Shown: positions 6,865-27,610, counted from the stretch's first letter. The stretch: 34,893 nt of DNA from Patescibacteria group bacterium (GCA_018818185.1 JAHISL010000105.1:1-34893); one strand, 5' to 3'. Numbers and translations: made by a program. The notes: generated by a model not told the origin, from the letters alone.

Positions 6865-6893
6865 GGCCTATTTTAGCGAATAAGTGACTATTT

Positions 6894-6904
6894 TGATATA
6901 TAAT
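6894..6904 (+). promoter_or_regulatory. Extended -10 promoter (TGATATATAAT) 6 nt upstream of the ATG at 6911
   Basis: The plus strand reads TTTTGATATATAAT-CGCAAA-ATG with no SD. This is the same geometry as the MTAE-family cassettes. Confidence 0.45.
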
Positions 6905-6910
6905 CGCAAA

Positions 6911-7147
6911 ATGGGCGAGAAATTATGTCTAAAATGCATTGAAGAAGGGCGCAGTGTGTGCCTAATTGAAGAAAAAATGCGGATATTGCAATCAAAAGTT
7001 CCAGAAGTTGCCGACAATGAAAAAAATTTGGAAATAATTCAGAGACTAAATATGGAGGAAAAAGAAATTCATGAATTAGGGCGTAAAAGGGGTTGTCATC
7101 ATCACAATGACTTTACCCTAAGTTTGCCTAGATTTGAGTTAAAATAA
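6911..7147 (+). CDS. Hypothetical small Cys/His-containing protein (78 aa)
   Basis: The ORF-track entry 6884-7147 starts at a non-ATG codon. I prefer the ATG at 6911 (MGEKLCLKCIEEGRSVC...GCHHHND) because it sits 6 nt after a -10 box. The CxxC...C...CHHH pattern suggests metal binding. No family recognised. Confidence 0.4.
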   Translation: MGEKLCLKCIEEGRSVCLIEEKMRILQSKVPEVADNEKNLEIIQRLNMEEKEIHELGRKRGCHHHNDFTLSLPRFELK

Positions 7148-7227
7148 ATGCTCGTCATGTCCGAGATAAATCACGAACAAAGGCGAGCAATTAGATTTTA
7201 GCAAAAAAAACAAAGAGAGAAAACTGA

Positions 7228-7503
7228 TTAGCCCCTACGACCAAATAGAGAAACTTTTTTCTTAGTTGATTGACTATCCTTGTAGGCACGAACTTCTATT
7301 CCACCGATATTTATACTACGATTTCCAGTAACAGTTTCAGTAGATTGAGGAGTATCACCTTTATAGGTTGAGTGAATAAAGCCATCTTTTATTGGCATAA
7401 TTCCGTGCCTTATTCCATCATTGTAGATAGGATATTCACCTTGAGGTCGAGGAAAGTTTAAAAATGTTTCTGAACCTGTTTCAAAAATTACTTCTGCACC
7501 CAT
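7228..7503 (-). CDS. Hypothetical 91-aa protein; probable short member of the MTAE family found at 20678-22420
   Basis: It starts MGAEV, with first codons ATGGGTGCAGAAGTA versus ATGACGGCAGAAGTA in the array. It has DG-x9-DGF-x25-GIEVRAY, matching the array layout [DN]GF-x22-25-G-x-x-[ILV]-[KR]. A TGTTATAAT box lies upstream at 7536-7544 on the reverse strand. Confidence 0.45.
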   Translation of the reverse strand: MGAEVIFETGSETFLNFPRPQGEYPIYNDGIRHGIMPIKDGFIHSTYKGDTPQSTETVTGNRSINIGGIEVRAYKDSQSTKKKVSLFGRRG

Positions 7504-7561
7504 ATTTTGATAGATAATATGTTAATAATGTATATATTATAACATATTTTGATCTAGTTTG

Positions 7562-11949: not shown

Positions 11950-12228
11950 TTATTTGATCGATAAAATTAGATTTGAACCGAGACCGACTGAAATGCGTTC
12001 AATTAGCTCCAGGGATGGATTAAGGGTGGAATTTTCAAGACGTGAAATAATTGCCTGGGTGGTGCGGGCTTTTTTCGCAAGATCTTGCTGAGACATCTTT
12101 TTCTCTAATCTCTTTTTAATTATCTGACGTGATAATTGATATTTAGGGTTTGATTCTTCCCAGAGTTTCTTAAATTCAGGATCTTTTAAACTATTTTTAA
12201 AATATTGATCGAACGACAAGAGTTTCAT
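11950..12228 (-). CDS. XRE-family HTH protein, probable antitoxin (HigA-like)
   Basis: 92 aa. The HTH is MSQQDLAKKARTTQAIISRLENSTLNPSLELIERI. It lies directly downstream of a Gp49/HigB-like toxin gene. Confidence 0.75.
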   Translation of the reverse strand: MKLLSFDQYFKNSLKDPEFKKLWEESNPKYQLSRQIIKKRLEKKMSQQDLAKKARTTQAIISRLENSTLNPSLELIERISVGLGSNLILSIK

Positions 12229-12258
12229 GGGGTAATTATATCGTATAGGATATAAATG

Positions 12259-12588
12259 TCAAGATAATTTATAAAAACGATTTAGAGCAATGTTGATTTC
12301 TTTGAGGGGGGTTTTGTTAGATTTTTTCTTGAAGGCATGCAATAAAATTATTTCGTCTTTTATTTTATTGGCGTAGATAATTCGAGTACTGTTTTTACCC
12401 AATATTCTTATTTCCCAAAGTGGGTAACCGGACAGTTTTTTAATGTGAGGAGAGGCTGAAATTAGACCAAACTCGATAATATTTTTTACAATTATAGAAA
12501 CCTTAATTTTGGTTTCTTTGTTTTTATCTAAAAAATCACCAACTGGATTTTTACCTCGATGGTCTAAAAAAAACTTGACTGATGCCAT
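12259..12588 (-). CDS. Type II toxin, RelE/ParE superfamily (phage Gp49-like / HigB-like)
   Basis: 109 aa. The segment LWEIRILGKNSTRIIYANKIKDEIILLHAFKKKSNKTPLKEINIAL matches the Gp49-like signature (yRi.y....i.lLh.F.KK..ktP..ei). The toxin-first order is typical of higBA. Confidence 0.7.
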   Translation of the reverse strand: MASVKFFLDHRGKNPVGDFLDKNKETKIKVSIIVKNIIEFGLISASPHIKKLSGYPLWEIRILGKNSTRIIYANKIKDEIILLHAFKKKSNKTPLKEINIALNRFYKLS

Positions 12589-12589
12589 G

Positions 12590-12612
12590 TGAATATTATT
12601 ACATAATATTCA
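12590..12612. promoter_or_regulatory. Perfect 10-bp inverted repeat TGAATATTAT-TAC-ATAATATTCA, candidate operator of the toxin-antitoxin operon
   Basis: Read directly from the sequence. It begins 1 nt upstream of the toxin ATG (12588). A TTGACA hexamer lies at 12614-12619 on the reverse strand, just upstream. Confidence 0.55.
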
Positions 12613-12638
12613 GTGTCAAACCCAGAGGGTACAGGGAA

Positions 12639-12872
12639 TTATTTATTATCTTCTATCAAAACAATATTTAAACATTTGATTTCTGTTTGACCACCCTCGG
12701 GTCTCCTGACAAGGAAAACGGAGCCATCCATTTTTATTGACTGGGCAGCAGTATCTAAGATTTGTTTGGCCATAGCTTGGACTTCTTCTTCAGTTGCACG
12801 AGGATATCTAGTTCTAATCGAAGAATTAAGTAAGCTAAAAGGGTCCTTGGAAGAATTATCTTGTTCAACCAT
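12639..12872 (-). CDS. Hypothetical 77-aa protein
   Basis: The ORF is preceded by its own extended -10 box 5 nt from the ATG. No family recognised. Confidence 0.4.
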   Translation of the reverse strand: MVEQDNSSKDPFSLLNSSIRTRYPRATEEEVQAMAKQILDTAAQSIKMDGSVFLVRRPEGGQTEIKCLNIVLIEDNK

Positions 12873-12877
12873 AGTTA

Positions 12878-12886
12878 ATTATATCA
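12878..12886 (-). promoter_or_regulatory. Extended -10 promoter TGATATAAT, 5 nt upstream of the ATG at 12872
   Basis: The reverse strand reads AATTTGATATAAT-TAACT-ATG. No SD is present. Confidence 0.45.
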
Positions 12887-12951
12887 AATTGTAACAATAA
12901 TGACATATTCCCGATAATAGAAAAATCTTTTGTAAAAAAAAGTAATCGATA

Positions 12952-13575
12952 TTAGTATTTGGCTAATTTTTTTACGATCTGATCAAGATCTGATTTGAAG
13001 GTCTGGGAATTAATCTCGTAGTAGGGGTAGTTATAAGATTTTGCCTCATTTCTAAACAATTCGCTGAATTTTGAAGAATAGGATATAACTTTTTTGAAAA
13101 TATCTCGGTTTGAATTTTCTAGCCAATCTCCTTCGGAGCGATGATTCCAGGAATATTCAAAAAATGACTCAAAATTTGTATTACCAACACAGATAAATTT
13201 TATTTGATACTTATCAATAAAACTTGTATCAAAAAAACTTGGTAGTAGGGCAACCCCTTCAAGAATAAAATCGCGATTATTATAGGAAATTGATTCAACA
13301 AAGCCCTTTACAATTTTGACAACCTCTTTTGACTCTGACTTTTGATTGTTTATTATTTCCTGAATTGATGGGGAAAACGTTTTTTCTATATAGTCCTCAT
13401 CTTTCCAGCTTATCCAATGGGCGAAAAGTTGATCACTTTTAGGAATACTTTCTAAATTAACGACACTTTCCCTAAGATTATCGGTCGACAACCAGGAAAA
13501 ACCCGTTGCTTTAGATATTTTTTTGGCAAGTTGAGATTTTCCAGTACGAGGAGCACCCCCAAGGAAATAAATCAT
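12952..13575 (-). CDS. P-loop NTPase / kinase-like protein
   Basis: 207 aa. The Walker A motif sits at the extreme N-terminus (MIYFLGGAPRTGKSQLAKKIS), as in small nucleotide/sugar kinase-like AAA_33-type proteins. A TACAAT box at 13581-13586 lies 5 nt upstream of the ATG. Confidence 0.55.
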   Translation of the reverse strand: MIYFLGGAPRTGKSQLAKKISKATGFSWLSTDNLRESVVNLESIPKSDQLFAHWISWKDEDYIEKTFSPSIQEIINNQKSESKEVVKIVKGFVESISYNNRDFILEGVALLPSFFDTSFIDKYQIKFICVGNTNFESFFEYSWNHRSEGDWLENSNRDIFKKVISYSSKFSELFRNEAKSYNYPYYEINSQTFKSDLDQIVKKLAKY

Positions 13576-13594
13576 GATTCATTGTAGCAAAAGC

Positions 13595-16218: not shown

Positions 16219-16222
16219 CAGA

Positions 16223-16486
16223 TTACTTATCAAGAGGGCAAGCTTGGCAACTCACAGTATCGTTGATGGGGTAGATAGAGGGGGCATCAAGATGGTCGGT
16301 GGAGGGAGGATATGAGGCGATGACTATCCTGGCGCTTATGATAGCAGGACAAGCATCGTCGAAATAATCATCTCTTTTGTCACATTGAGCAAAAGGTCTA
16401 ATAAAGGAAACACGAAGCTTAAGATGTGGAAATCTTTTTTGATCTTCCTCGCTTAGAGGATATTGGGATTGTTGTTCAATGTCCAT
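16223..16486 (-). CDS. Cys-rich small protein, paralog 3 (most diverged, 87 aa)
   Basis: It has KRFPHLKLRV...AQC...DAC...SCQAC. It shares the [YF]PHLxL motif and the terminal SCQxC with the two upstream paralogs. Confidence 0.5.
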   Translation of the reverse strand: MDIEQQSQYPLSEEDQKRFPHLKLRVSFIRPFAQCDKRDDYFDDACPAIISARIVIASYPPSTDHLDAPSIYPINDTVSCQACPLDK

Positions 16487-16510
16487 ATTATTTGGTTAGT
16501 AAATTTTTTA

Positions 16511-16807
16511 TTAAATTTGACTGTCTAAAAAATTATCTATCGCAACATCCATAGCAATACATTCTTGACAAGATCGAAGACTCATACCAGTAATACTGGT
16601 AATTGTCGGCACATTGGTTTCAAGACTTTGTCGCATGGTGACGATAAGACATCTTTGATAAATACAATTGTTCTGCCTGGAACGAATAGCACAAGCTGTT
16701 TTGATACCACCATCTTCCGCATATGAGAGATCAAGGTGGGGATAACGTTTATTAATTGAACTAGTTTTTCTAAAAGTTCGGTCTTTTCTACTTTCTTTAT
16801 TTTGCAT
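16511..16807 (-). CDS. Cys-rich small protein, paralog 2 (98 aa)
   Basis: It reads KRYPHLDLSYAEDGGIKTACAIRSRQNNCIYQRC...MRQSLETNVPTITSITGMSLRSCQEC, which aligns with paralog 1 along its whole length. Confidence 0.55.
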   Translation of the reverse strand: MQNKESRKDRTFRKTSSINKRYPHLDLSYAEDGGIKTACAIRSRQNNCIYQRCLIVTMRQSLETNVPTITSITGMSLRSCQECIAMDVAIDNFLDSQI

Positions 16808-16849
16808 TTGATGACAATTAAAAGTTATGCTTGGTATTGGCTTTATCCT

Positions 16850-19532: not shown

Positions 19533-20522
19533 TTAACTTTTGTTGGCAGATACCTTGATTTCTAGTCCACAAAGCATTCCTGCCAAACGGACATTCTCAC
19601 CACCGGCACCAATGGCCAGAGCAAGTTGATCTTCGGGAATTTCAACCTGAGCAGTGGTGTCGTCGACAGAAATTACTTTGACATCGCTAGCAGGAGAAAG
19701 AGCGTTGACAATGAACTGAGAAAGGTTTTTGGCATAGGCGACAACGTCGACTTTTTCGTCTGGAGGTAGCTCGGTCAATACTGACTGAATTCGAGAACCT
19801 TTTTGACCAATACAGGAACCGACAGGATCAATTCCATTTTGAGAGGAAGAGACGGCAACCTTGGTGCGTTGACCGGCTTCACGGGCAATTTTTTCGATAA
19901 CCACGGTGTGATTGTTGACTTCGGGAACTTCGCGAGCAAAAAGTTGTTTGACAAATTCGGGATCACGTCGAGAAAGAATAATGTCTTTTCGACCAGTAAC
20001 AGCATCTTCTTGGATTTCTTTTATTAGAAATAGTTTTTTAGAACTAATATCAAGTATTTCATTCTTGATTTGTTCGTCTTTGGGAAGAACACCTTCTGTT
20101 TTGCCGATACCGATGGTTTTTTTATAAGGATCAACTCGGAGAACAACACCAAGAGTAAGGGTGCCAATCTTTTGATGATATTCACCAACAACGGTGTCTC
20201 GTTCAACTTCACGAATTTTTTGGTCGATGACCTGTTTGGCGGTCATGGCGGCAATGCGACCGAAACCGGGAGGGGTAACGTCTTTTCTCTCTTCACCCTC
20301 AACTTCAAAAATGGCAAAGGAACCAGATTCGGGAGAAAGATCAACTTCGAAGACAGATTCTTCGGAGATAATAACACCATGCTCTTTTTGATCACGCTTA
20401 TAAGCGGAAATTAAACCTTGTTCAATGGCGTCGATAATCTCTTGAGGATCGATGTTGCGTTCACCGGCGATTTGAGCGACGGCGGCGGCGAATTCAGTTT
20501 TTGGTAGTCTTCTAATATCCAT
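19533..20522 (-). CDS. nusA: Transcription termination/antitermination factor NusA (no C-terminal acidic repeats)
   Basis: 329 aa with an N-terminal domain, S1 and two KH regions (GSCIGQKGSRIQ, AIGAGGENVRLAG). An AAGGAG SD lies at 20527-20532. Confidence 0.92.
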   Translation of the reverse strand: MDIRRLPKTEFAAAVAQIAGERNIDPQEIIDAIEQGLISAYKRDQKEHGVIISEESVFEVDLSPESGSFAIFEVEGEERKDVTPPGFGRIAAMTAKQVIDQKIREVERDTVVGEYHQKIGTLTLGVVLRVDPYKKTIGIGKTEGVLPKDEQIKNEILDISSKKLFLIKEIQEDAVTGRKDIILSRRDPEFVKQLFAREVPEVNNHTVVIEKIAREAGQRTKVAVSSSQNGIDPVGSCIGQKGSRIQSVLTELPPDEKVDVVAYAKNLSQFIVNALSPASDVKVISVDDTTAQVEIPEDQLALAIGAGGENVRLAGMLCGLEIKVSANKS

Positions 20523-20537
20523 ATTTCTCCTTTTGGT

Positions 20538-20568
20538 AAAACAAAAATGGGGACACGACGGCCCCCAT
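20538..20568 (-). terminator. Intrinsic-terminator-like hairpin in the nusA leader (candidate attenuator)
   Basis: The reverse strand reads AUGGGGGC-CGUCGU-GUCCCCAU, an 8-bp stem that includes one G-U pair. UUUUGUUUU follows, then ACCAAAAGGAGAAAU-AUG. Confidence 0.6.
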
Positions 20569-20596
20569 TCCGAAATACCACAGATTTAACTTGATT

Positions 20597-20605
20597 ATTA
20601 TAACA
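20597..20605 (-). promoter_or_regulatory. nusA extended -10 promoter TGTTATAAT
   Basis: The reverse strand reads AGTGTTATAATAATC, about 75 nt upstream of the nusA ATG. The terminator-like hairpin lies between this box and the SD. Confidence 0.5.
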
Positions 20606-20642
20606 CTAAATAGCTAAAAAATTGAGGCTAAAACATAAATAC

Positions 20643-20692
20643 TGGAAGAGATTGAGATATTATGATATATTCCGTACATGACGGCAGAAGTA
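20643..20692 (+). repeat. MTAE-family 5' cassette, copy 1 (extended -10 TGATATATT at 20663-20671, 6-nt spacer, ATG at 20678)
   Basis: It reads TGGAAGAGATTGAGATATTATGATATATTCCGTAC-ATGACGGCAGAAGTA. It is about 74 percent identical to copy 2 over the 35 nt before the ATG, by hand count. Confidence 0.6.
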
Positions 20693-21088
20693 ACAGGTGG
20701 AAAGATTTGTTTGGTAGGAGGGGAAGAAACAATTAAGTGGAAAATTGATGATTCGGGAAAGAGAGCTCAATTAAAAAAAGTTGAAGGTAGGTTAGAGTTA
20801 AGTATTTTTCAGGGAGATATTGAAGAAACCACCTTTAGAAAATGTGTAGTTATTGTTCGAGACGGTGAAGTCTATAGAACTGACAGAAATAGTAATGTCG
20901 AAAGGACAGTTGTACCCCTCGGAAACTATGGAATTTATTTTCGTAAAAATAAAGTAGTAAAAATTGCGGGAACATTTAAAGGATTTGATACTTTTCCTAA
21001 GATTTCTGGACAAACTACCTACAGACACGGAGAAATGATTCAGACAAAGAAAGGCATTAAGATCAAAGCAATAGAAAATAAACGTTAG
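20678..21088 (+). CDS. MTAE-family protein 1 (136 aa, unknown function)
   Basis: It reads MTAEVTGGK...RDGEVY...FKGFDT...GIKIKAIENKR. The alternating hydrophobic pattern suggests an all-beta fold. It has no TM helix or signal peptide. Confidence 0.6.
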   Translation: MTAEVTGGKICLVGGEETIKWKIDDSGKRAQLKKVEGRLELSIFQGDIEETTFRKCVVIVRDGEVYRTDRNSNVERTVVPLGNYGIYFRKNKVVKIAGTFKGFDTFPKISGQTTYRHGEMIQTKKGIKIKAIENKR

Positions 21089-21124
21089 ATTTAGAAAATT
21101 AAGCAAGCTGCAAGAGATAAGTTG

Positions 21125-21174
21125 TAGAAGAGACTGAATTATTGTGATATATTTCGCATATGACAGCAGAAATA
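21125..21174 (+). repeat. MTAE-family 5' cassette, copy 2 (TGATATATT at 21145-21153, 6-nt spacer, ATG at 21160)
   Basis: It reads TAGAAGAGACTGAATTATTGTGATATATTTCGCAT-ATGACAGCAGAAATA. Confidence 0.6.
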
Positions 21175-21573
21175 AGAGGAACACTTGCCTATCTAATAAA
21201 AAGAGAGGGGGTAGATACCGAGCTGGAAGCTATTCCTTCAAGCTTTTTAGTGGAAGCTTATGAGGGAAAACTGATATTAAGACAAACAGAAGGTGATGTA
21301 AATGAAAAAGCCAGTATATATTCTGGTTTAAGGGCAGTGATACATGGAGGGATAGTAATTTCGACAAAAAATAGTGAAAAGGTGACCCTTCGTGACGGGG
21401 AACAAGCGGTCGAAATTTTACCTGATGGAACAGTTCGAACGTTTGTCGGGACACTAAATGGATTTGAGGTCAGAGGAGGAGAAAATAGACTTCTCAAGAA
21501 AGAATACACTGCCGGTAAAAAGATAATCACCCCCAGGGGAACTGAGATTAAAGCAATTAGGGGAGATCTGTAA
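21160..21573 (+). CDS. MTAE-family protein 2 (137 aa)
   Basis: It reads MTAEIRGTL...IHGGIVI...LNGFEV...GTEIKAIRGDL. Confidence 0.6.
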   Translation: MTAEIRGTLAYLIKREGVDTELEAIPSSFLVEAYEGKLILRQTEGDVNEKASIYSGLRAVIHGGIVISTKNSEKVTLRDGEQAVEILPDGTVRTFVGTLNGFEVRGGENRLLKKEYTAGKKIITPRGTEIKAIRGDL

Positions 21574-21980
21574 TGACGGCAGAAGTTGATAAAAAAATCG
21601 TTGTACAAGTACAAAAAAAAGAAAGAATCACTTTTGAGATGGATGATGGAGACAGTCTTGAAATTCATGCACTTAAGGGAACGAGCGGTGAATTGGAGGT
21701 GGTCAGGGAACGGATAATTCAGTGTTCTGGTCCAATAAGGGGAGTAATTTTTAAGGGGAGATTTTATGTGAGTGAGGGAGAAGACAATATAGTTGAGCCA
21801 GGAGACAGGGTGTTTCACGTGTCTGATGAAGGAAAGGGATTAGAAATAATTGAAGGAAGGGAAAATGGTTTTCGAATAACAAGATCCAACGGTGATACGA
21901 CTGAGTATCATTCAAAAAATACAGTTGTTTTGAGGGGTCCAGCGGGAGTAGTATTAAAAGCAAGACAAAACAATAAGTAG
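21573..21980 (+). CDS. MTAE-family protein 3 (135 aa), translationally coupled to protein 2
   Basis: It reads MTAEVDKKI...FKGRFYV...ENGFRI...GVVLKARQNNK. Its start overlaps the protein 2 stop (TAATG at 21571-21575). A GGGGAG SD lies 7 nt upstream, inside the 3' end of gene 2. Confidence 0.6.
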   Translation: MTAEVDKKIVVQVQKKERITFEMDDGDSLEIHALKGTSGELEVVRERIIQCSGPIRGVIFKGRFYVSEGEDNIVEPGDRVFHVSDEGKGLEIIEGRENGFRITRSNGDTTEYHSKNTVVLRGPAGVVLKARQNNK

Positions 21981-22027
21981 AAGAAGTTGTACTATTGTGA
22001 TATATTTTGCATATGACTGCGGAAATA
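21978..22027 (+). repeat. MTAE-family 5' cassette, copy 3 (TGATATATT at 21998-22006, 6-nt spacer, ATG at 22013)
   Basis: It reads TAGAAGAAGTTGTACTATTGTGATATATTTTGCAT-ATGACTGCGGAAATA. It is about 81 percent identical to copy 2 over the 37 nt before the ATG, by hand count. Confidence 0.6.
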
Positions 22028-22420
22028 AACACAGAACTTAATCATGTAGTTTTGACTCCAGGACAAGACGTGGGGGTTGGATTTCAATTTAGGAGATACG
22101 GAAATATCTGTTTTAAAAGGGGTGAGTTTCCAATACAGGTGATAGCTGATGGTAATGAACTGCCAATTGAAGCAAATGTGGTGATATATGACAGAACAAT
22201 ATATACAATTGCAAAAGAAAGGCCGTCATCTTTAACTTTAGAAAATTGTGGGACAAGAGCGTTGAGCATAACCGAGAAAGGAATTCAAGAAATATGTATA
22301 ACAGATAATGGTTTTTCAGTAAGGGAAATTTATCCCGGAGAAAGAAGGCCTGTTTTTTTTGAAGGTGGAATAACAATGGAGCTTGATTCGGGAGTTAAGT
22401 TGAGAGGAAAAAGAGGTTAG
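22013..22420 (+). CDS. MTAE-family protein 4 (135 aa)
   Basis: The ORF track starts at a TTG at 22007 (MHMTAE). The ATG at 22013 restores the family N-terminus: MTAEINTEL...IYDRTIY...DNGFSV...GVKLRGKRG. Confidence 0.6.
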   Translation: MTAEINTELNHVVLTPGQDVGVGFQFRRYGNICFKRGEFPIQVIADGNELPIEANVVIYDRTIYTIAKERPSSLTLENCGTRALSITEKGIQEICITDNGFSVREIYPGERRPVFFEGGITMELDSGVKLRGKRG

Positions 22421-22431
22421 TTGGCTATTGT

Positions 22432-23298
22432 TTACAAATCCAATTCTTTGATCAATTGTTTTTGTTTGGCGGAGAGACGATAAGGAATGACGATGTTAAG
22501 ACGAATATAAAGATCGCCAACACCGTAACCACTGACATCTTTAATCCCCTGGCCTCGAAGACGGACCAGGGTGTTGGGCTGGGTACCTGATTTAACACGA
22601 ATTTTTAATTTATCGGTAAGGGTAGGTACTTCGATAACATCACCCAAAATTGCCTGTGATATGGTTATATTTTGACTAACGTAAACATCATTACCATCGC
22701 GCTTGAAAACTTTATCGGGCAAAACATCAATGTATAAATTAAAGTTGGTAAATTTGATACGCTGACCGTCGTCGACCCCGGCGGGAATTTTTATTTTCTT
22801 CTCTGAGCCGTCAATATTGACTTCTTTTTCACAGCCAAGAGCAGCATCTAAAAATGAGATTTGAATCTTGTAGGTTGGGACTTGGCGACGTGACTGGCCA
22901 CCAAAGTTAACGCCACCGGTACCGCCAAAAAATTGCTCAAAGATATCGAAAGGGTTGCTAAAACCGCCAAAATCAAAGTCAGCACCTTGCTGGCCACCAT
23001 TGGAAGATTGCCAAGTAAAGTCGAAGGGACCATTTTGTTGAGTGTAGGTATGACCGCCAAAATTGCCGCCAGCATTGGGGTCAAAGGCGGTATGACCGTA
23101 TTGGTCGTAGGCGGTTTTTTTCTGGTCGTTACTGAGAACTTCGTAGGCTTCGTTGATTTCTTTGAACTTTTCCTCCGCATCGGCAGATTTGTTTCGATCG
23201 GGGTGCCACTGCATGGCTTGCTTACGATAAGCCGACTTGATCTCCTCTTTTGAGGCACCTTTTTTGACTCCAAGTGTTTCGTAAAAATCAGGTTTCAT
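22432..23298 (-). CDS. dnaJ: DnaJ-type co-chaperone lacking the Cys-rich zinc-finger domain (CbpA-like architecture)
   Basis: 288 aa. The J domain is [33 protein letters not shown], followed by a G/F-rich region and C-terminal substrate-binding domains. It has no CxxCxGxG repeats. Confidence 0.85.
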
Positions 23299-25791: not shown

Positions 25792-26532
25792 TTAACGAGT
25801 AATGGTTGAGATTAGTTCGGCAAAGAAATCAACAACGGGAATAACTACTTGATATTCGACGCGGGCGGGACCGATGACACCGACGATACCTCGATGAGGG
25901 CCTGCTTGATAGGTTTGGTAGATGAAACCGCAAGGTTCAAGGTGCTCCATACCTAAATCTTCACCGACAAGTAGATGAATTAACTGAGAGGAGGGTTCTT
26001 CGGTGCTAACCCCGGCCTTACTGATAATGTCGAACCAAAAATTTGGATTGTCTAAAAGTGATAAGACAGTTTTGGTAACATCGATGTTGTAAAACTCTGG
26101 CTCCTCGAGCAAGTTTGAAGCACCATAGCTATAAATAGAACCCTGGTCAGTAGTCGAAATGGCTAAAGATCGAGTTTTTTTGGCAAGTTCTCGAGTAGTT
26201 TCCTTGAGAAGTTTTTCGAATTCGTTTCGATAATCCCATACTTTTTCTTTGACACCAATTTCGTCACTAACGGACATATTTTTGGGAGTCATGAGATTGC
26301 GGACATAGTATTTCAGACCCATAGAGGTCGGACAGCGACCGGCAGAAAGATGGCCTTTTTTAAGGAAGCCAAGTTGAGTTAGGGACGACATCTCGTTTCT
26401 GATGGTGGCGGAAGAAATACCGAGATTATATTTTCGTTCGAGAGTCTCAGAACCGACAGGAGTTGCAGAATCAATAAACTCTTCGGTAATACATTTGAGA
26501 ATCTTAATTTGACGTTGAGTTAAATCAGCCAT
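25792..26532 (-). CDS. hrcA: Heat-inducible transcription repressor HrcA (short, 246 aa)
   Basis: It has LTQRQIKILKCITEEFIDSATPVGSETLERKYNLGISSATIRNEMSSLTQLGFL, the HrcA wHTH. It is first in an hrcA-grpE-dnaK-dnaJ order and is preceded by a CIRCE-like repeat. Confidence 0.85.
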   Translation of the reverse strand: MADLTQRQIKILKCITEEFIDSATPVGSETLERKYNLGISSATIRNEMSSLTQLGFLKKGHLSAGRCPTSMGLKYYVRNLMTPKNMSVSDEIGVKEKVWDYRNEFEKLLKETTRELAKKTRSLAISTTDQGSIYSYGASNLLEEPEFYNIDVTKTVLSLLDNPNFWFDIISKAGVSTEEPSSQLIHLLVGEDLGMEHLEPCGFIYQTYQAGPHRGIVGVIGPARVEYQVVIPVVDFFAELISTITR

Positions 26533-26533
26533 A

Positions 26534-26560
26534 TTAGCAGTATAATAGAACGACTGCTAA
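26534..26560. promoter_or_regulatory. CIRCE-like operator TTAGCAGTC-N9-TACTGCTAA
   Basis: The 27-nt 9+9+9 inverted repeat starts 1 nt upstream of the hrcA ATG. The consensus is TTAGCACTC-N9-GAGTGCTAA. Position 7 of the left arm and position 3 of the right arm are swapped in a compensatory way. Confidence 0.75.
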
Positions 26561-26570
26561 GCAGTGTCAA
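26542..26570 (-). promoter_or_regulatory. hrcA sigma-70-type promoter, TTGACA-17 nt-TATTAT, overlapping CIRCE
   Basis: The reverse strand reads CCTTGACA-CTGCTTAGCAGTCGTTC-TATTAT-ACTGCTAAT-ATG. The -35 box overlaps the rmuC stop codon. The -10 box lies inside CIRCE, 9 nt from the ATG, and there is no SD. Confidence 0.6.
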
Positions 26571-27610
26571 GGAGTAAGTGATGGCGGAGAGTCATTATCT
26601 TCAATGTTGATTTTATCGATGACCTTCTGAAGCTTGTTGTTGCGAGTAAGGCTGACCTTGTTGAACTGATCGTGAAGACTATCGATCTTGGTACCAAATT
26701 TGTTGAACTCTTCGTTAAATTTGTTGAACTCAGCACCAAATATTTTTATTTGAGAAATTATTCCACGGACATTTTTTTGAAATCGAAAATTTTCGTAGGC
26801 CTGTTTGACCATTCTTAGTATTGCAGTAAAAGAAAAGGGGCCAGCAAAAACAATTTTTTTGTTGAAGGCTTCCTCGAGAAGGTTTGGGAATTTCTCGTAA
26901 ATAAAACTAAAAATCATCTCATTGGGAATAAAAACAATCACGAAATCAACCGTATTTTCTTCAGGATTAATATAATTTCTACTGGAGACATCGGCAATTT
27001 TCCTCTTAATATCACCCTCGAAGGCCTTTAAAAATTGGGCTTTTTGATCGGCGTTTTCAGTTTCGCTCATTTTGACAATGTTGGCGTAGGGAAATTTTGC
27101 ATCAATGTTGACTTTGGTTTTGTCGGGAAGATAGAGGGTGAAATCTGGTCGCCCTTCGGCAAATGTTTCCTGTTTACTATAGTCAGTGCCAATAACAAAG
27201 CCTGATTGCTTGAGGAGGTCTTCGGCAACTTTTTCGCCAAAAGCACCGCGCATACGATCACTACTTAGGGTTCTTTTAAGACCTTCGGTAGTGACAGAAA
27301 GTTCTTTGGTAATTTTGGTGCTAGTTTCTATGGCATCCCTAAGACCAGTAAAACTACGGATGCGATCTTTTTCAACAGTGGAAAGCTGATCTTGGACCTG
27401 CTTGATCATCTTTTCAATAGCATCTTTTTTATTGGATAGATCTGTCTGAATTTGAAGATTTTTGTCATTTAGTTTGTCGTTTGATTGTTTGACGAGAGTA
27501 TCGATTGCCTTGGAAAGATCAATTTGATCTGGCTTGTTGGATTTTTGGAGATAGACAAAATAGGCCAGGGTGGCGAGAATTAAAATTAAAAGAAGATAAA
27601 CGAAGGTCAT
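26567..27610 (-). CDS. rmuC: DNA recombination protein RmuC
   Basis: 347 aa with an N-terminal TM helix and a coiled coil. RPDFTLYLPDKTKVNIDAKFP is the RmuC nuclease-like core. A TACAAT box at 27616-27621 lies 5 nt upstream of the ATG. Confidence 0.85.
   Translation of the reverse strand: MTFVYLLLILILATLAYFVYLQKSNKPDQIDLSKAIDTLVKQSNDKLNDKNLQIQTDLSNKKDAIEKMIKQVQDQLSTVEKDRIRSFTGLRDAIETSTKITKELSVTTEGLKRTLSSDRMRGAFGEKVAEDLLKQSGFVIGTDYSKQETFAEGRPDFTLYLPDKTKVNIDAKFPYANIVKMSETENADQKAQFLKAFEGDIKRKIADVSSRNYINPEENTVDFVIVFIPNEMIFSFIYEKFPNLLEEAFNKKIVFAGPFSFTAILRMVKQAYENFRFQKNVRGIISQIKIFGAEFNKFNEEFNKFGTKIDSLHDQFNKVSLTRNNKLQKVIDKINIEDNDSPPSLTP

What the first reader, a model, noticed from the sequence alone, without database searches (positions are those of the whole stretch)
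20643..22027. A ~50-nt 5' cassette is conserved at nucleotide level while the coding bodies have diverged
Copies 1, 2 and 4 are each preceded by (T)AGAAGAG-ACTGA-ATTATTGTGATATATT-(6 nt)-ATGAC-GC-GAA. By hand count the three copies are about 74-81 percent identical over the 35-37 nt before the ATG. The downstream protein sequences are barely alignable. The cassette contains an extended -10 element (TG-A-TATATT) exactly 6 nt before the ATG and has no Shine-Dalgarno sequence. Transcripts should therefore start at or next to the AUG, giving leaderless mRNAs. Conservation extends about 20 nt upstream of the -10 box (GAAGAG..TGA), which hints at an operator for a shared regulator. Selection or gene conversion is keeping the control region and the first five codons constant while the rest drifts.
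Basis: seen in the sequence. Interest (0 to 1): 0.65.

Follow-up and report, generated by a model that had tools for sequence, protein, structure and literature searches.

The report
Repeated leaderless promoter before fast-evolving paralogs
Three of four tandem copies of a small, fast-evolving, unknown protein gene in an uncultured Shapirobacteria (CPR) genome each carry the same ~45-base promoter ending 6 bases before the start codon, so their mRNAs most likely begin at the AUG; this kind of signal is well known and looks common among first genes in this bacterial group.

Summary
Cassettes at 20645-20689, 21127-21171 and 21980-22024 are 68-83% identical upstream of the ATG. The coding bodies are 18-31% identical in protein and 44-49% in codon-aligned DNA.

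The core TTGTGATATATTTYGCATATG is exact in 6 of 11 cassettes from seven related genomes, and three more differ at one base. It reads as a TRTG-extended -10 promoter (TATATT) placed 6 nt before the ATG, with no Shine-Dalgarno. Two relatives have a perfect TTGACA -35 at an 18-nt spacing.

In Shapirobacteria loci a -10-like box 5-8 nt before start codons is enriched 2-3 fold, and Shine-Dalgarno motifs sit at background level. Leaderless starts therefore look common in the clade, not special to this cassette.

The MTAE codons are conserved at the protein level, including in copies without a promoter.

New context: the four genes are an ORFan all-beta family found only in a small Shapirobacteria subclade. 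They are inserted on the opposite strand between dnaJ and nusA. Copy number is 1, 2 or 4, and the island is replaced wholesale between genomes about 94% identical in DNA. One relative has a chimeric cassette, which fits recombination between cassettes. No transcription start data exist.

The parts
20642..20680 (+). Cassette 1 promoter. -35-like CTGGAA at 20642-20647; 18-nt spacer; TRTG motif TATG at 20661-20664; -10 TATATT at 20666-20671; discriminator CCGTAC at 20672-20677; ATG at 20678.
   Evidence: Aligned with orthologous promoters.
20678..21088 (+). Paralog 1, 136 aa, begins MTAEV.
21124..21162 (+). Cassette 2 promoter. -35-like GTAGAA at 21124-21129; TGTG at 21143-21146; -10 TATATT at 21148-21153; discriminator TCGCAT at 21154-21159; ATG at 21160. 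The stretch 21143-21180 is 38/38 identical to the cassette of the first island gene in L003.
21160..21573 (+). Paralog 2, 137 aa, begins MTAEIRG. Closest relative is P0005 of L003 (46% aa identity).
   Evidence: AlphaFold model with pLDDT 81, all-beta.
21560..21575 (+). Junction of copies 2 and 3. GGGGAG at 21560-21565 lies 7 nt before the ATG at 21573. That ATG overlaps the TAA stop of copy 2 (TAATG). There is no promoter cassette, so translation is probably coupled to copy 2.
   Evidence: L003 has the same layout (GGAG..ATGA).
21573..21980 (+). Paralog 3, 135 aa, begins MTAEV, with no promoter of its own.
21977..22015 (+). Cassette 4 promoter. -35-like GTAGAA at 21977-21982, which includes the TAG stop of copy 3; TGTG at 21996-21999; -10 TATATT at 22001-22006; discriminator TTGCAT at 22007-22012; ATG at 22013.
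22013..22420 (+). Paralog 4, 135 aa, begins MTAEI. It converges on dnaJ (22432-23298, minus strand) with a 11-nt gap and no terminator.
20630..22455 (.). Strain-variable island between nusA and dnaJ. Outside these limits the window is 94-100% identical to L003. Inside, only the cassette core (24 of 30 positions at 20660-20689) stands out from noise.

Best explanation
Each cassette is a self-contained expression signal.

Promoter anatomy. It is a housekeeping-sigma (sigma-70 type) promoter that relies on a TRTG-extended -10 element (TGTG/TATG-A-TATATT). The -35 is weak and variable. A fixed 6-nt discriminator, T(C/T)GCAT, puts the transcription start on the A of the ATG.

Predicted mRNAs. The transcripts of copies 1, 2 and 4 should be leaderless, with translation starting directly at a 5'-terminal AUG and no Shine-Dalgarno. 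Copy 3 has no cassette. It is co-transcribed with copy 2 and probably translated by coupling at the TAATG overlap.

Why the core is conserved. Both the -10 region and the exact -10-to-AUG distance must be kept for the mRNA to begin with AUG. The attached coding bodies belong to a lineage-specific family of roughly 135-aa all-beta proteins of unknown function. They evolve under weak or diversifying selection and are gained, lost and replaced between strains.

Shown: the sequence anatomy, the cross-genome conservation, the clade-wide enrichment of a -10 box next to start codons, and the turnover of the island.
Inferred: the transcription start site, leaderless translation, and the reason for the strong constraint.
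For: 1. Anatomy. TRTG-n-TATATT-N6-ATG occurs at all three cassettes and nowhere else in the window. No Shine-Dalgarno is present.

2. Phylogenetic footprint. The core TTGTGATATATTTYGCATATG is exact in 6 of 11 cassettes. These come from the window, L003, L008, L013, L105, L111 and L090. Three more differ at one base: CTG for TTG in L003, ATA for ATG in the second L090 copy, and TCTCAT for TCGCAT in the second L111 copy. Copy 1 of the window differs at four. Sequence 30 nt upstream of copy 1's core and the coding bodies are unalignable even between genomes about 94% identical in DNA.

3. A canonical -35 sits at the right place in relatives: TTGACA at 18 nt in L008 and in the second L111 cassette, and TTGGCA at 17 nt in L013.

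4. Clade-wide signal. Across 181 gene families from 80 Shapirobacteria loci plus the window, TAnnnT lies 5-8 nt before the start in 26%, against 8.5-12.5% at control offsets. Shine-Dalgarno-like 4-mers occur in 9.2%, against 8.6% in random 13-mers. The box is kept in 90% of hrcA orthologs and 83% of rmuC orthologs. A Pribnow box 6-8 nt from gene starts is the accepted signature of leaderless transcription (PMC6028130).

5. The ATG is the true start. Copies without a promoter (copy 3, and the second gene of L003) begin with the same MTAE codons, directly overlapping the upstream stop codon.

6. L090 carries the same module in front of other small ORFs. In one copy ATG has become ATA and the ORF starts 35 nt further on, so the module works as a promoter whatever follows it.

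7. No RNA family and no significant RNA structure were found.
Against: - No transcription start or expression data exist for this uncultured organism, so the start at the A of the ATG is inferred from geometry only.
- The -35 in the three window copies is poor (2-3 matches of 6).
- Ordinary promoter function does not obviously require the invariant discriminator TYGCAT or the moderately conserved spacer. An extra factor may bind there.
- The genome-wide statistics rest on a crude ORF caller and on loci from a single chromosomal neighbourhood.
- The simple two-hexamer promoter scan did not call these sites, because their -35 fails its threshold.
Confidence: 0.7

Rival explanations
1. The cassette is a promoter and also an operator. 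A dedicated regulator, for example one recognising the imperfect palindrome TGTGA-N6-TCGCA centred on the -10, co-regulates all cassette-headed genes. That binding would explain why the discriminator and spacer are conserved.
For: - The discriminator TYGCAT and the flanking T-rich spacer are conserved beyond what a -10 element needs.
- The 5-bp arms TGTGA and TCGCA can pair, and copy 1 has one compensated change, TATGA/CCGTA.
- In L090 the same module heads unrelated small ORFs at another locus.
- A cassette-like TTTTGATATATAATCGCAAAATG precedes another small plus-strand ORF at 6889-6913.
Against: - TGTG is already explained by the TRTG -16 promoter motif (my own knowledge of Gram-positive promoters).
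- A 4-of-5 palindrome has about a 1.6% chance at one fixed spacing.
- TGTGA-N6-TC[AG]CA occurs nowhere else in about 0.94 Mb of Shapirobacteria loci: 2 hits, both cassettes, against 3.4 expected.
- No candidate regulator gene lies nearby.
Confidence: 0.2
2. The within-genome similarity comes mainly from concerted evolution, meaning gene conversion or recent duplication of the 5' ends. In this view the cassette matters chiefly as a homology anchor through which gene bodies are duplicated, deleted and exchanged.
For: - Copy number is 1, 2 or 4 in related genomes.
- L013 has a chimeric cassette. Its upstream half and TCGCAT match the first L111 cassette, and its coding side matches the second, as expected from recombination between the two direct repeats.
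- L003's first gene sits where copy 1 sits but has copy 2's cassette, 38/38 identical.
- Between the window and L003 the flanks have dS 0.07-0.31 while island orthologs have dS 1.2-1.6, which points to replacement rather than divergence in place.
Against: - The core is equally conserved in single-copy genomes (L008, L105, L013), where conversion between copies is impossible.
- Copy 2's cassette is closer to its L003 ortholog than to its own paralogs, so there has been no recent homogenisation.
- No recombinase or integrase gene lies in the 35-kb window.
- Recombination at repeats is an expected by-product of having repeated promoters.
Confidence: 0.1
3. The conserved element acts at the RNA level, as a structured 5' element or processing site in read-through transcripts, and not as a promoter.
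For: A 5-bp hairpin is predicted in the alignment of nine cassettes.
Against: - Consensus energy is only -3.8 kcal/mol, with 1 covarying pair.
- Single-sequence folds have z-scores from -0.1 to -1.4.
- There is no Rfam hit even at E<=1.
- The element is conserved in first-in-array and single-copy positions, where no upstream same-strand transcript is expected.
Confidence: 0.03

Closest known systems
Leaderless-mRNA promoters of 'group C' bacteria (Actinobacteria, Deinococcus-Thermus; e.g. the Mycobacterium tuberculosis leaderless transcriptome)
   Same: A Pribnow box 6-8 nt upstream of an AUG start codon. No Shine-Dalgarno. It occurs at first genes of operons and is enriched genome-wide (PMC6028130).
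   Different: The host is a CPR/Patescibacteria lineage (Ca. Shapirobacteria). I found no published report of leaderless usage there. Internal genes here also lack Shine-Dalgarno. No transcription start data exist.
Extended -10 / '-16 region' (TRTGnTATAAT) promoters of Gram-positive bacteria and E. coli
   Same: TGTG or TATG, one base, then TATATT. The -35 is dispensable or weak. The consensus is from my own knowledge.
   Different: Function was not tested. The discriminator is unusually conserved.
Putative mobile promoters (near-identical promoter sequences upstream of non-homologous genes)
   Same: The same 21-24-nt module heads highly diverged paralogs. In L090 it heads small ORFs with no detectable homology.
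   Different: Only a few copies per genome. No associated mobile element. Most copies sit at one locus and are explained by tandem duplication.
Integron gene-cassette arrays
   Same: A tandem array of short genes whose number varies between close strains, with repeats at unit boundaries.
   Different: Each unit has its own promoter. There are no attC-like inverted repeats and no integrase. The boundary repeats are the promoter itself and, in L111 and L008, a copy of the dnaJ 3' end.

Membership tests
Sigma-70 extended -10 promoter | TG (TRTG) one base upstream of a -10 hexamer close to TATAAT | tested here: met
   TGTG/TATG-A-TATATT (5 of 6) in all three cassettes and in every related cassette examined.
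Sigma-70 extended -10 promoter | -35 hexamer 16-18 nt upstream (optional for the extended -10 class) | tested here: inconclusive
   The window copies have CTGGAA or GTAGAA (2-3 of 6). Relatives have TTGACA, TTGGCA or TTGGTA at 17-18 nt. The simple scan did not call the window sites.
Sigma-70 extended -10 promoter | Directs transcription initiation | not testable with these tools
   No transcriptome or in vitro assay is available.
Leaderless mRNA gene | Transcription start coincides with the A of the start codon | not testable with these tools
   Inferred only. The -10 ends 6 nt before the ATG, with a T(-1)A(+1) context.
Leaderless mRNA gene | -10 box 6-8 nt before the start, AUG start codon, no Shine-Dalgarno | tested here: met
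   Ten of 11 cassettes keep ATG exactly 6 nt after TATATT.
Leaderless mRNA gene | The same architecture is enriched at other first genes of the organism or clade | tested here: met
   26% against 8.5-12.5% at control offsets. Shine-Dalgarno at background. hrcA 90% and rmuC 83%.
Integron gene cassette | attC recombination site after each ORF, promoterless cassettes, intI integrase nearby | tested here: not met
   No consistent inverted repeats at unit ends. Each unit has a promoter. No integrase in the window.
Diversity-generating retroelement target | Reverse transcriptase plus template repeat; hypervariation within a species | tested here: not met
   No reverse transcriptase in the window. 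P0009 is identical on 13 contigs from many samples. For L111 against L105 the island gene's dS (0.39) does not exceed that of dnaJ (0.80).
CRP/FNR-type operator (TGTGA-N6-TCACA) | Palindromic half-sites, further sites in the genome, a cognate regulator | tested here: inconclusive
   Right arm matches 4 of 5. No other sites in 0.94 Mb of related loci. The regulator could not be searched for.
Known protein, defence or phage families (for the encoded proteins) | Significant HMM or fold match | tested here: not met
   Pfam, NCBIfam, PADLOC and PHROGs gave nothing below E=0.03. Foldseek against PDB and BFVD gave TM no higher than 0.39.

The most novel reading that the evidence does not exclude
The cassette is the portable 'head' (promoter plus first codons) of a modular gene unit. 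By serving as a homology anchor, it lets bodies of a strain-specific small beta-protein family be duplicated, deleted and swapped at the dnaJ/nusA junction. The same head can also be attached to unrelated small ORFs elsewhere, as in L090 and possibly at window 6889-6913. That would be a promoter-anchored cassette system under diversifying or frequency-dependent selection in episymbiotic CPR bacteria, perhaps involved in host or phage interaction.
Probability: 0.15. Interest if true: 0.6.

Novelty: new member of a known kind. Interest (0 to 1): 0.4.

Why it matters
- It gives sequence-level comparative evidence that an uncultured CPR lineage (Shapirobacteria) often expresses first genes from leaderless mRNAs and barely uses Shine-Dalgarno. 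This bears on gene-start annotation and on how the reduced CPR ribosome initiates translation.
- It defines a compact 21-nt promoter that could be used or tested as a genetic part for these organisms.
- It flags a strain-variable ORFan gene island, wedged between two highly conserved operons, as a candidate locus for strain-specific biology.
- The promoter mechanism itself is textbook.

Tried and rejected
- Protein family searches (Pfam, NCBIfam, PADLOC, PHROGs) on the four proteins and their relatives found nothing significant.
- Foldseek with a good AlphaFold model (pLDDT 81) found no match in PDB or BFVD.
- Rfam at gathering threshold and at E<=1 found nothing.
- RNA structure in and around the cassette is not significant.
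- The viral-contig scan for the core gave 2 unrelated hits.
- Most of the 20 metagenome hits to the 20-mer are chance matches in unrelated contexts. Only L090, L101/L105 and L108 are relevant.
- DGR-like hypermutation is rejected.
- An integron-like system is rejected.
- I suspected that the window's GAAGAG block derives from a duplicated dnaJ 3' end, as the second L111 cassette does. Local alignments are no better than shuffles.
- A CRP-like regulon is not supported in the sampled loci.
- My first spacing profile over the 80 loci was inflated by repeated sampling of hrcA orthologs. I replaced it with family-weighted statistics.
- The search for related loci with the four-paralog alignment failed because no conserved stretch was available.

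Full report
WHAT IS THERE.

The window is a gene-dense, 39.6% G+C stretch in which almost every gene lies on the minus strand. NusA is 64-82% identical to 80 GTDB species that are nearly all labelled Candidatus Shapirobacteria (Microgenomates, CPR/Patescibacteria). The organism is therefore an uncultured Shapirobacterium that has no representative among those species.

Between nusA (19533-20522, minus) and dnaJ (22432-23298, minus) lie four tandem plus-strand ORFs of 136, 137, 135 and 135 aa. Their coordinates are 20678-21088, 21160-21573, 21573-21980 and 22013-22420.

CHECK OF THE OBSERVATION.

The cassette is real and non-random.
- The repeat finder returns one 68-nt, three-copy family.
- The bodies are 29-34% identical ungapped and 44-49% codon-aligned. 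Protein identity is 18-31%, and dS is above 1.
- Copy 3 lacks the cassette. Its ATG overlaps copy 2's stop codon (TAATG) and is preceded by GGGGAG 7 nt upstream.
- The proteins are nonetheless clear paralogs.

WHAT THE CASSETTE IS.

Read from the ATG backwards, each cassette is a 6-nt discriminator (TCGCAT, TTGCAT or CCGTAC), then TATATT, then A, then TGTG or TATG. That is TRTG-n-TATAtT, an extended -10 ('-16 region') promoter. Its hexamer occupies -12 to -7 if transcription starts on the A of the ATG, in a T(-1)A(+1) context. No Shine-Dalgarno fits in the 6 nt. TRTGNTANNNT-N6-ATG occurs only at these three places in 35 kb.

COMPARATIVE EVIDENCE.

The protein family is extremely narrow. An exhaustive HMMER search of 1.84 billion cluster representatives found only three credible relatives outside the window, plus one weak repeat-protein hit. 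Profile and word searches and a metagenome DNA scan added a few more.

All family members lie at the same site, on the strand opposite to nusA and dnaJ.
- L003 and its duplicates: two genes.
- L008: one gene.
- L105: one gene.
- L111: two genes.
- L013: one short gene.

In 45 of 66 GTDB Shapirobacteria loci, dnaJ and nusA are co-directional and no more than 168 nt apart. The island is therefore a lineage-specific insertion.

The core TTGTGATATATTTYGCATATG is exact in 6 of the 11 promoter-bearing cassettes seen.
- Three more differ at one base.
- Copy 1 of the window differs at four.
- These genomes have NusA 80-99% identical to the window's, and several are single-copy, so gene conversion alone cannot explain the conservation.

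The window copies have the degenerate CTGGAA or GTAGAA. That block is therefore the -35 plus spacer, and no separate operator is needed.

A contig from a different genomic context (L090) carries the same 21-24-nt module twice, in front of small ORFs with no detectable homology to the family. In one of them ATG has become ATA and the ORF begins 35 nt later. The module therefore behaves as a promoter regardless of what follows it.

LEADERLESS AS A COMMON PATTERN IN THE CLADE.

In the window, most first genes have a TAnnnT box 5-8 nt before the start and no Shine-Dalgarno. nusA is the clear exception: it has a leader and a GGAG.

My first profile over the 80 loci was inflated by hrcA orthologs, so I weighted by gene family. 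Among 181 families, 26% have the box at 5-8 nt, against 8.5-12.5% at control offsets. Shine-Dalgarno-like 4-mers are at background, 9.2% against 8.6%. The box is kept in 90% of hrcA orthologs and 83% of rmuC orthologs. Start codons behind a box at 6 nt are 93% ATG, against 81% overall.

This is the 'group C' signature that GeneMarkS-2 uses for leaderless transcription (PMC6028130). I found no paper reporting it for CPR.

THE FIRST CODONS.

MTAE(I/V) is conserved with synonymous variation (ACG/ACA/ACT, GCA/GCG). It is also conserved in the two promoter-less, translationally coupled genes: copy 3 and the second gene of L003. Other genomes use MSPARIE or MGAKFEK after the same promoter. The codons are therefore a protein feature (beta-strand 1 of the model) and not part of the DNA signal. 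They also confirm that the ATG is the real start.

THE ISLAND.

Comparison with L003. It is 94-100% identical to the window up to about 20610-20630 and again from about 22455. In between, only the cassette core stands out, with 24 of 30 positions identical.
- Flank divergence: dS 0.07-0.31, dN 0.003-0.013.
- Best island 'orthologs': 46% and 35% aa identity, dN 0.5-0.7, dS 1.2-1.6.
- This implies replacement by diverged family members, not divergence in place.

No hypermutation.
- Between L111 and L105 the island gene has dS 0.39, against 0.80 for dnaJ. Its dN is nine times higher (omega 0.53 against 0.03).
- P0009 is identical on 13 contigs from many samples.

Unit differences map to direct repeats.
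- L013 equals L111 minus its first gene. The chimeric cassette has the first cassette's upstream half and TCGCAT, and the second cassette's coding side.
- L105 equals L111 minus its second unit. The breakpoint is a 33-nt copy of the dnaJ 3' end, which also supplies the TTGACA -35 of the second L111 cassette.
- The window's cassettes show no such dnaJ-derived sequence.

The proteins. They have no match in Pfam, NCBIfam, PADLOC or PHROGs. A confident all-beta AlphaFold model (pLDDT 81, pTM 0.80) has no match in PDB or BFVD. Their function is unknown.

ALTERNATIVES.

- RNA-level function is unsupported.
- An integron-like system and a DGR are rejected.
- An overlapping operator (TGTGA-N6-TCGCA) cannot be excluded, and it would explain the invariant discriminator. 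But TGTG is already explained by the TRTG motif, and no further sites exist in 0.94 Mb of related loci.
- An alternative reason for the conserved discriminator is that a leaderless promoter must fix the start site to the nucleotide. This is inference.

VERDICT.

The promoter and leaderless reading is well supported by comparison but remains unproven without 5'-end data. The operator idea is not needed. The mechanism is a known kind, seen here in a lineage where I found no report of it. The strain-variable ORFan island adds moderate interest.

Noticed in passing
window 20523-20610 (minus strand): The nusA leader has an extended -10 (TGTTATAAT, about 20597-20605), then a terminator-like hairpin with a T run (20571-20544), then one of the few clear GGAG Shine-Dalgarno sites in the window. 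It is 100% identical to L003 and conserved across Shapirobacteria dnaJ-nusA spacers. It is probably the dnaK-operon terminator, a NusA-sensitive attenuator, or both.
   Followed up: partly
window 26534-26577 (minus strand), upstream of hrcA (25792-26532): A CIRCE-like inverted repeat, TTAGCAGTC-N9-TACTGCTAA (26534-26560), overlaps a TATACT box that ends 6 nt before the hrcA ATG. TTGACA lies upstream. The -10 box next to the start is kept in 90% of 50 hrcA orthologs, so the heat-shock operon also looks leaderless.
   Followed up: partly
window 6865-7561: Two small ORFs sit between proS and the RNase J gene. One is a plus-strand 78-aa Cys-rich ORF (6911-7147) behind a cassette-like TTTTGATATATAATCGCAAAATG (6889-6913). 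The other is a minus-strand 91-aa ORF (7228-7503) that begins MGAEVIFE and ends ..GIEVRA... It weakly matches the island family profile (E=0.006 among 197 ORFs) and may be a distant short member.
   Followed up: partly
window 11950-13580 and 16219-16848: Two more segments differ from the otherwise 93-95% identical L003. The first holds a Gp49/HigB-like toxin plus an HTH_3 antitoxin pair and two unknown ORFs; L003 has about 200 nt in its place. The second holds small unknown ORFs.
   Followed up: no
whole window and loci L009-L088: Shine-Dalgarno-like motifs upstream of starts are at background frequency (9.2% against 8.6%). Internal operon genes (infB, dnaK, grpE, dnaJ) have neither a Shine-Dalgarno nor a -10 box. 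Translation initiation in this clade seems largely Shine-Dalgarno-independent.
   Followed up: partly
L111 1251-1283 and 1547-1580; L008 about 225-262: A 33-nt copy of the dnaJ 3' end (30 of 33 identical; 0 of 2000 shuffles score as well) follows the first island gene of L111 and supplies the TTGACA -35 of the next cassette. L008 keeps a remnant upstream of its single cassette. In that lineage the array grew by a duplication that included the dnaJ tail.
   Followed up: yes
L090 2359-2950 (minus strand): The same 21-24-nt promoter module occurs twice at an unrelated locus, next to a tRNA-like sequence and a sufC-like gene. It heads small ORFs (71 and about 72 aa) with no detectable homology to the island family. 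The second copy has ATA in place of ATG.
   Followed up: partly
window 22420-22432: Paralog 4 and dnaJ converge with only 11 nt between their stop codons, and no terminator was found on either strand. Island transcripts should therefore run antisense into dnaJ. dnaK-operon read-through should run antisense through the island until it meets the hairpin in the nusA leader.
   Followed up: no
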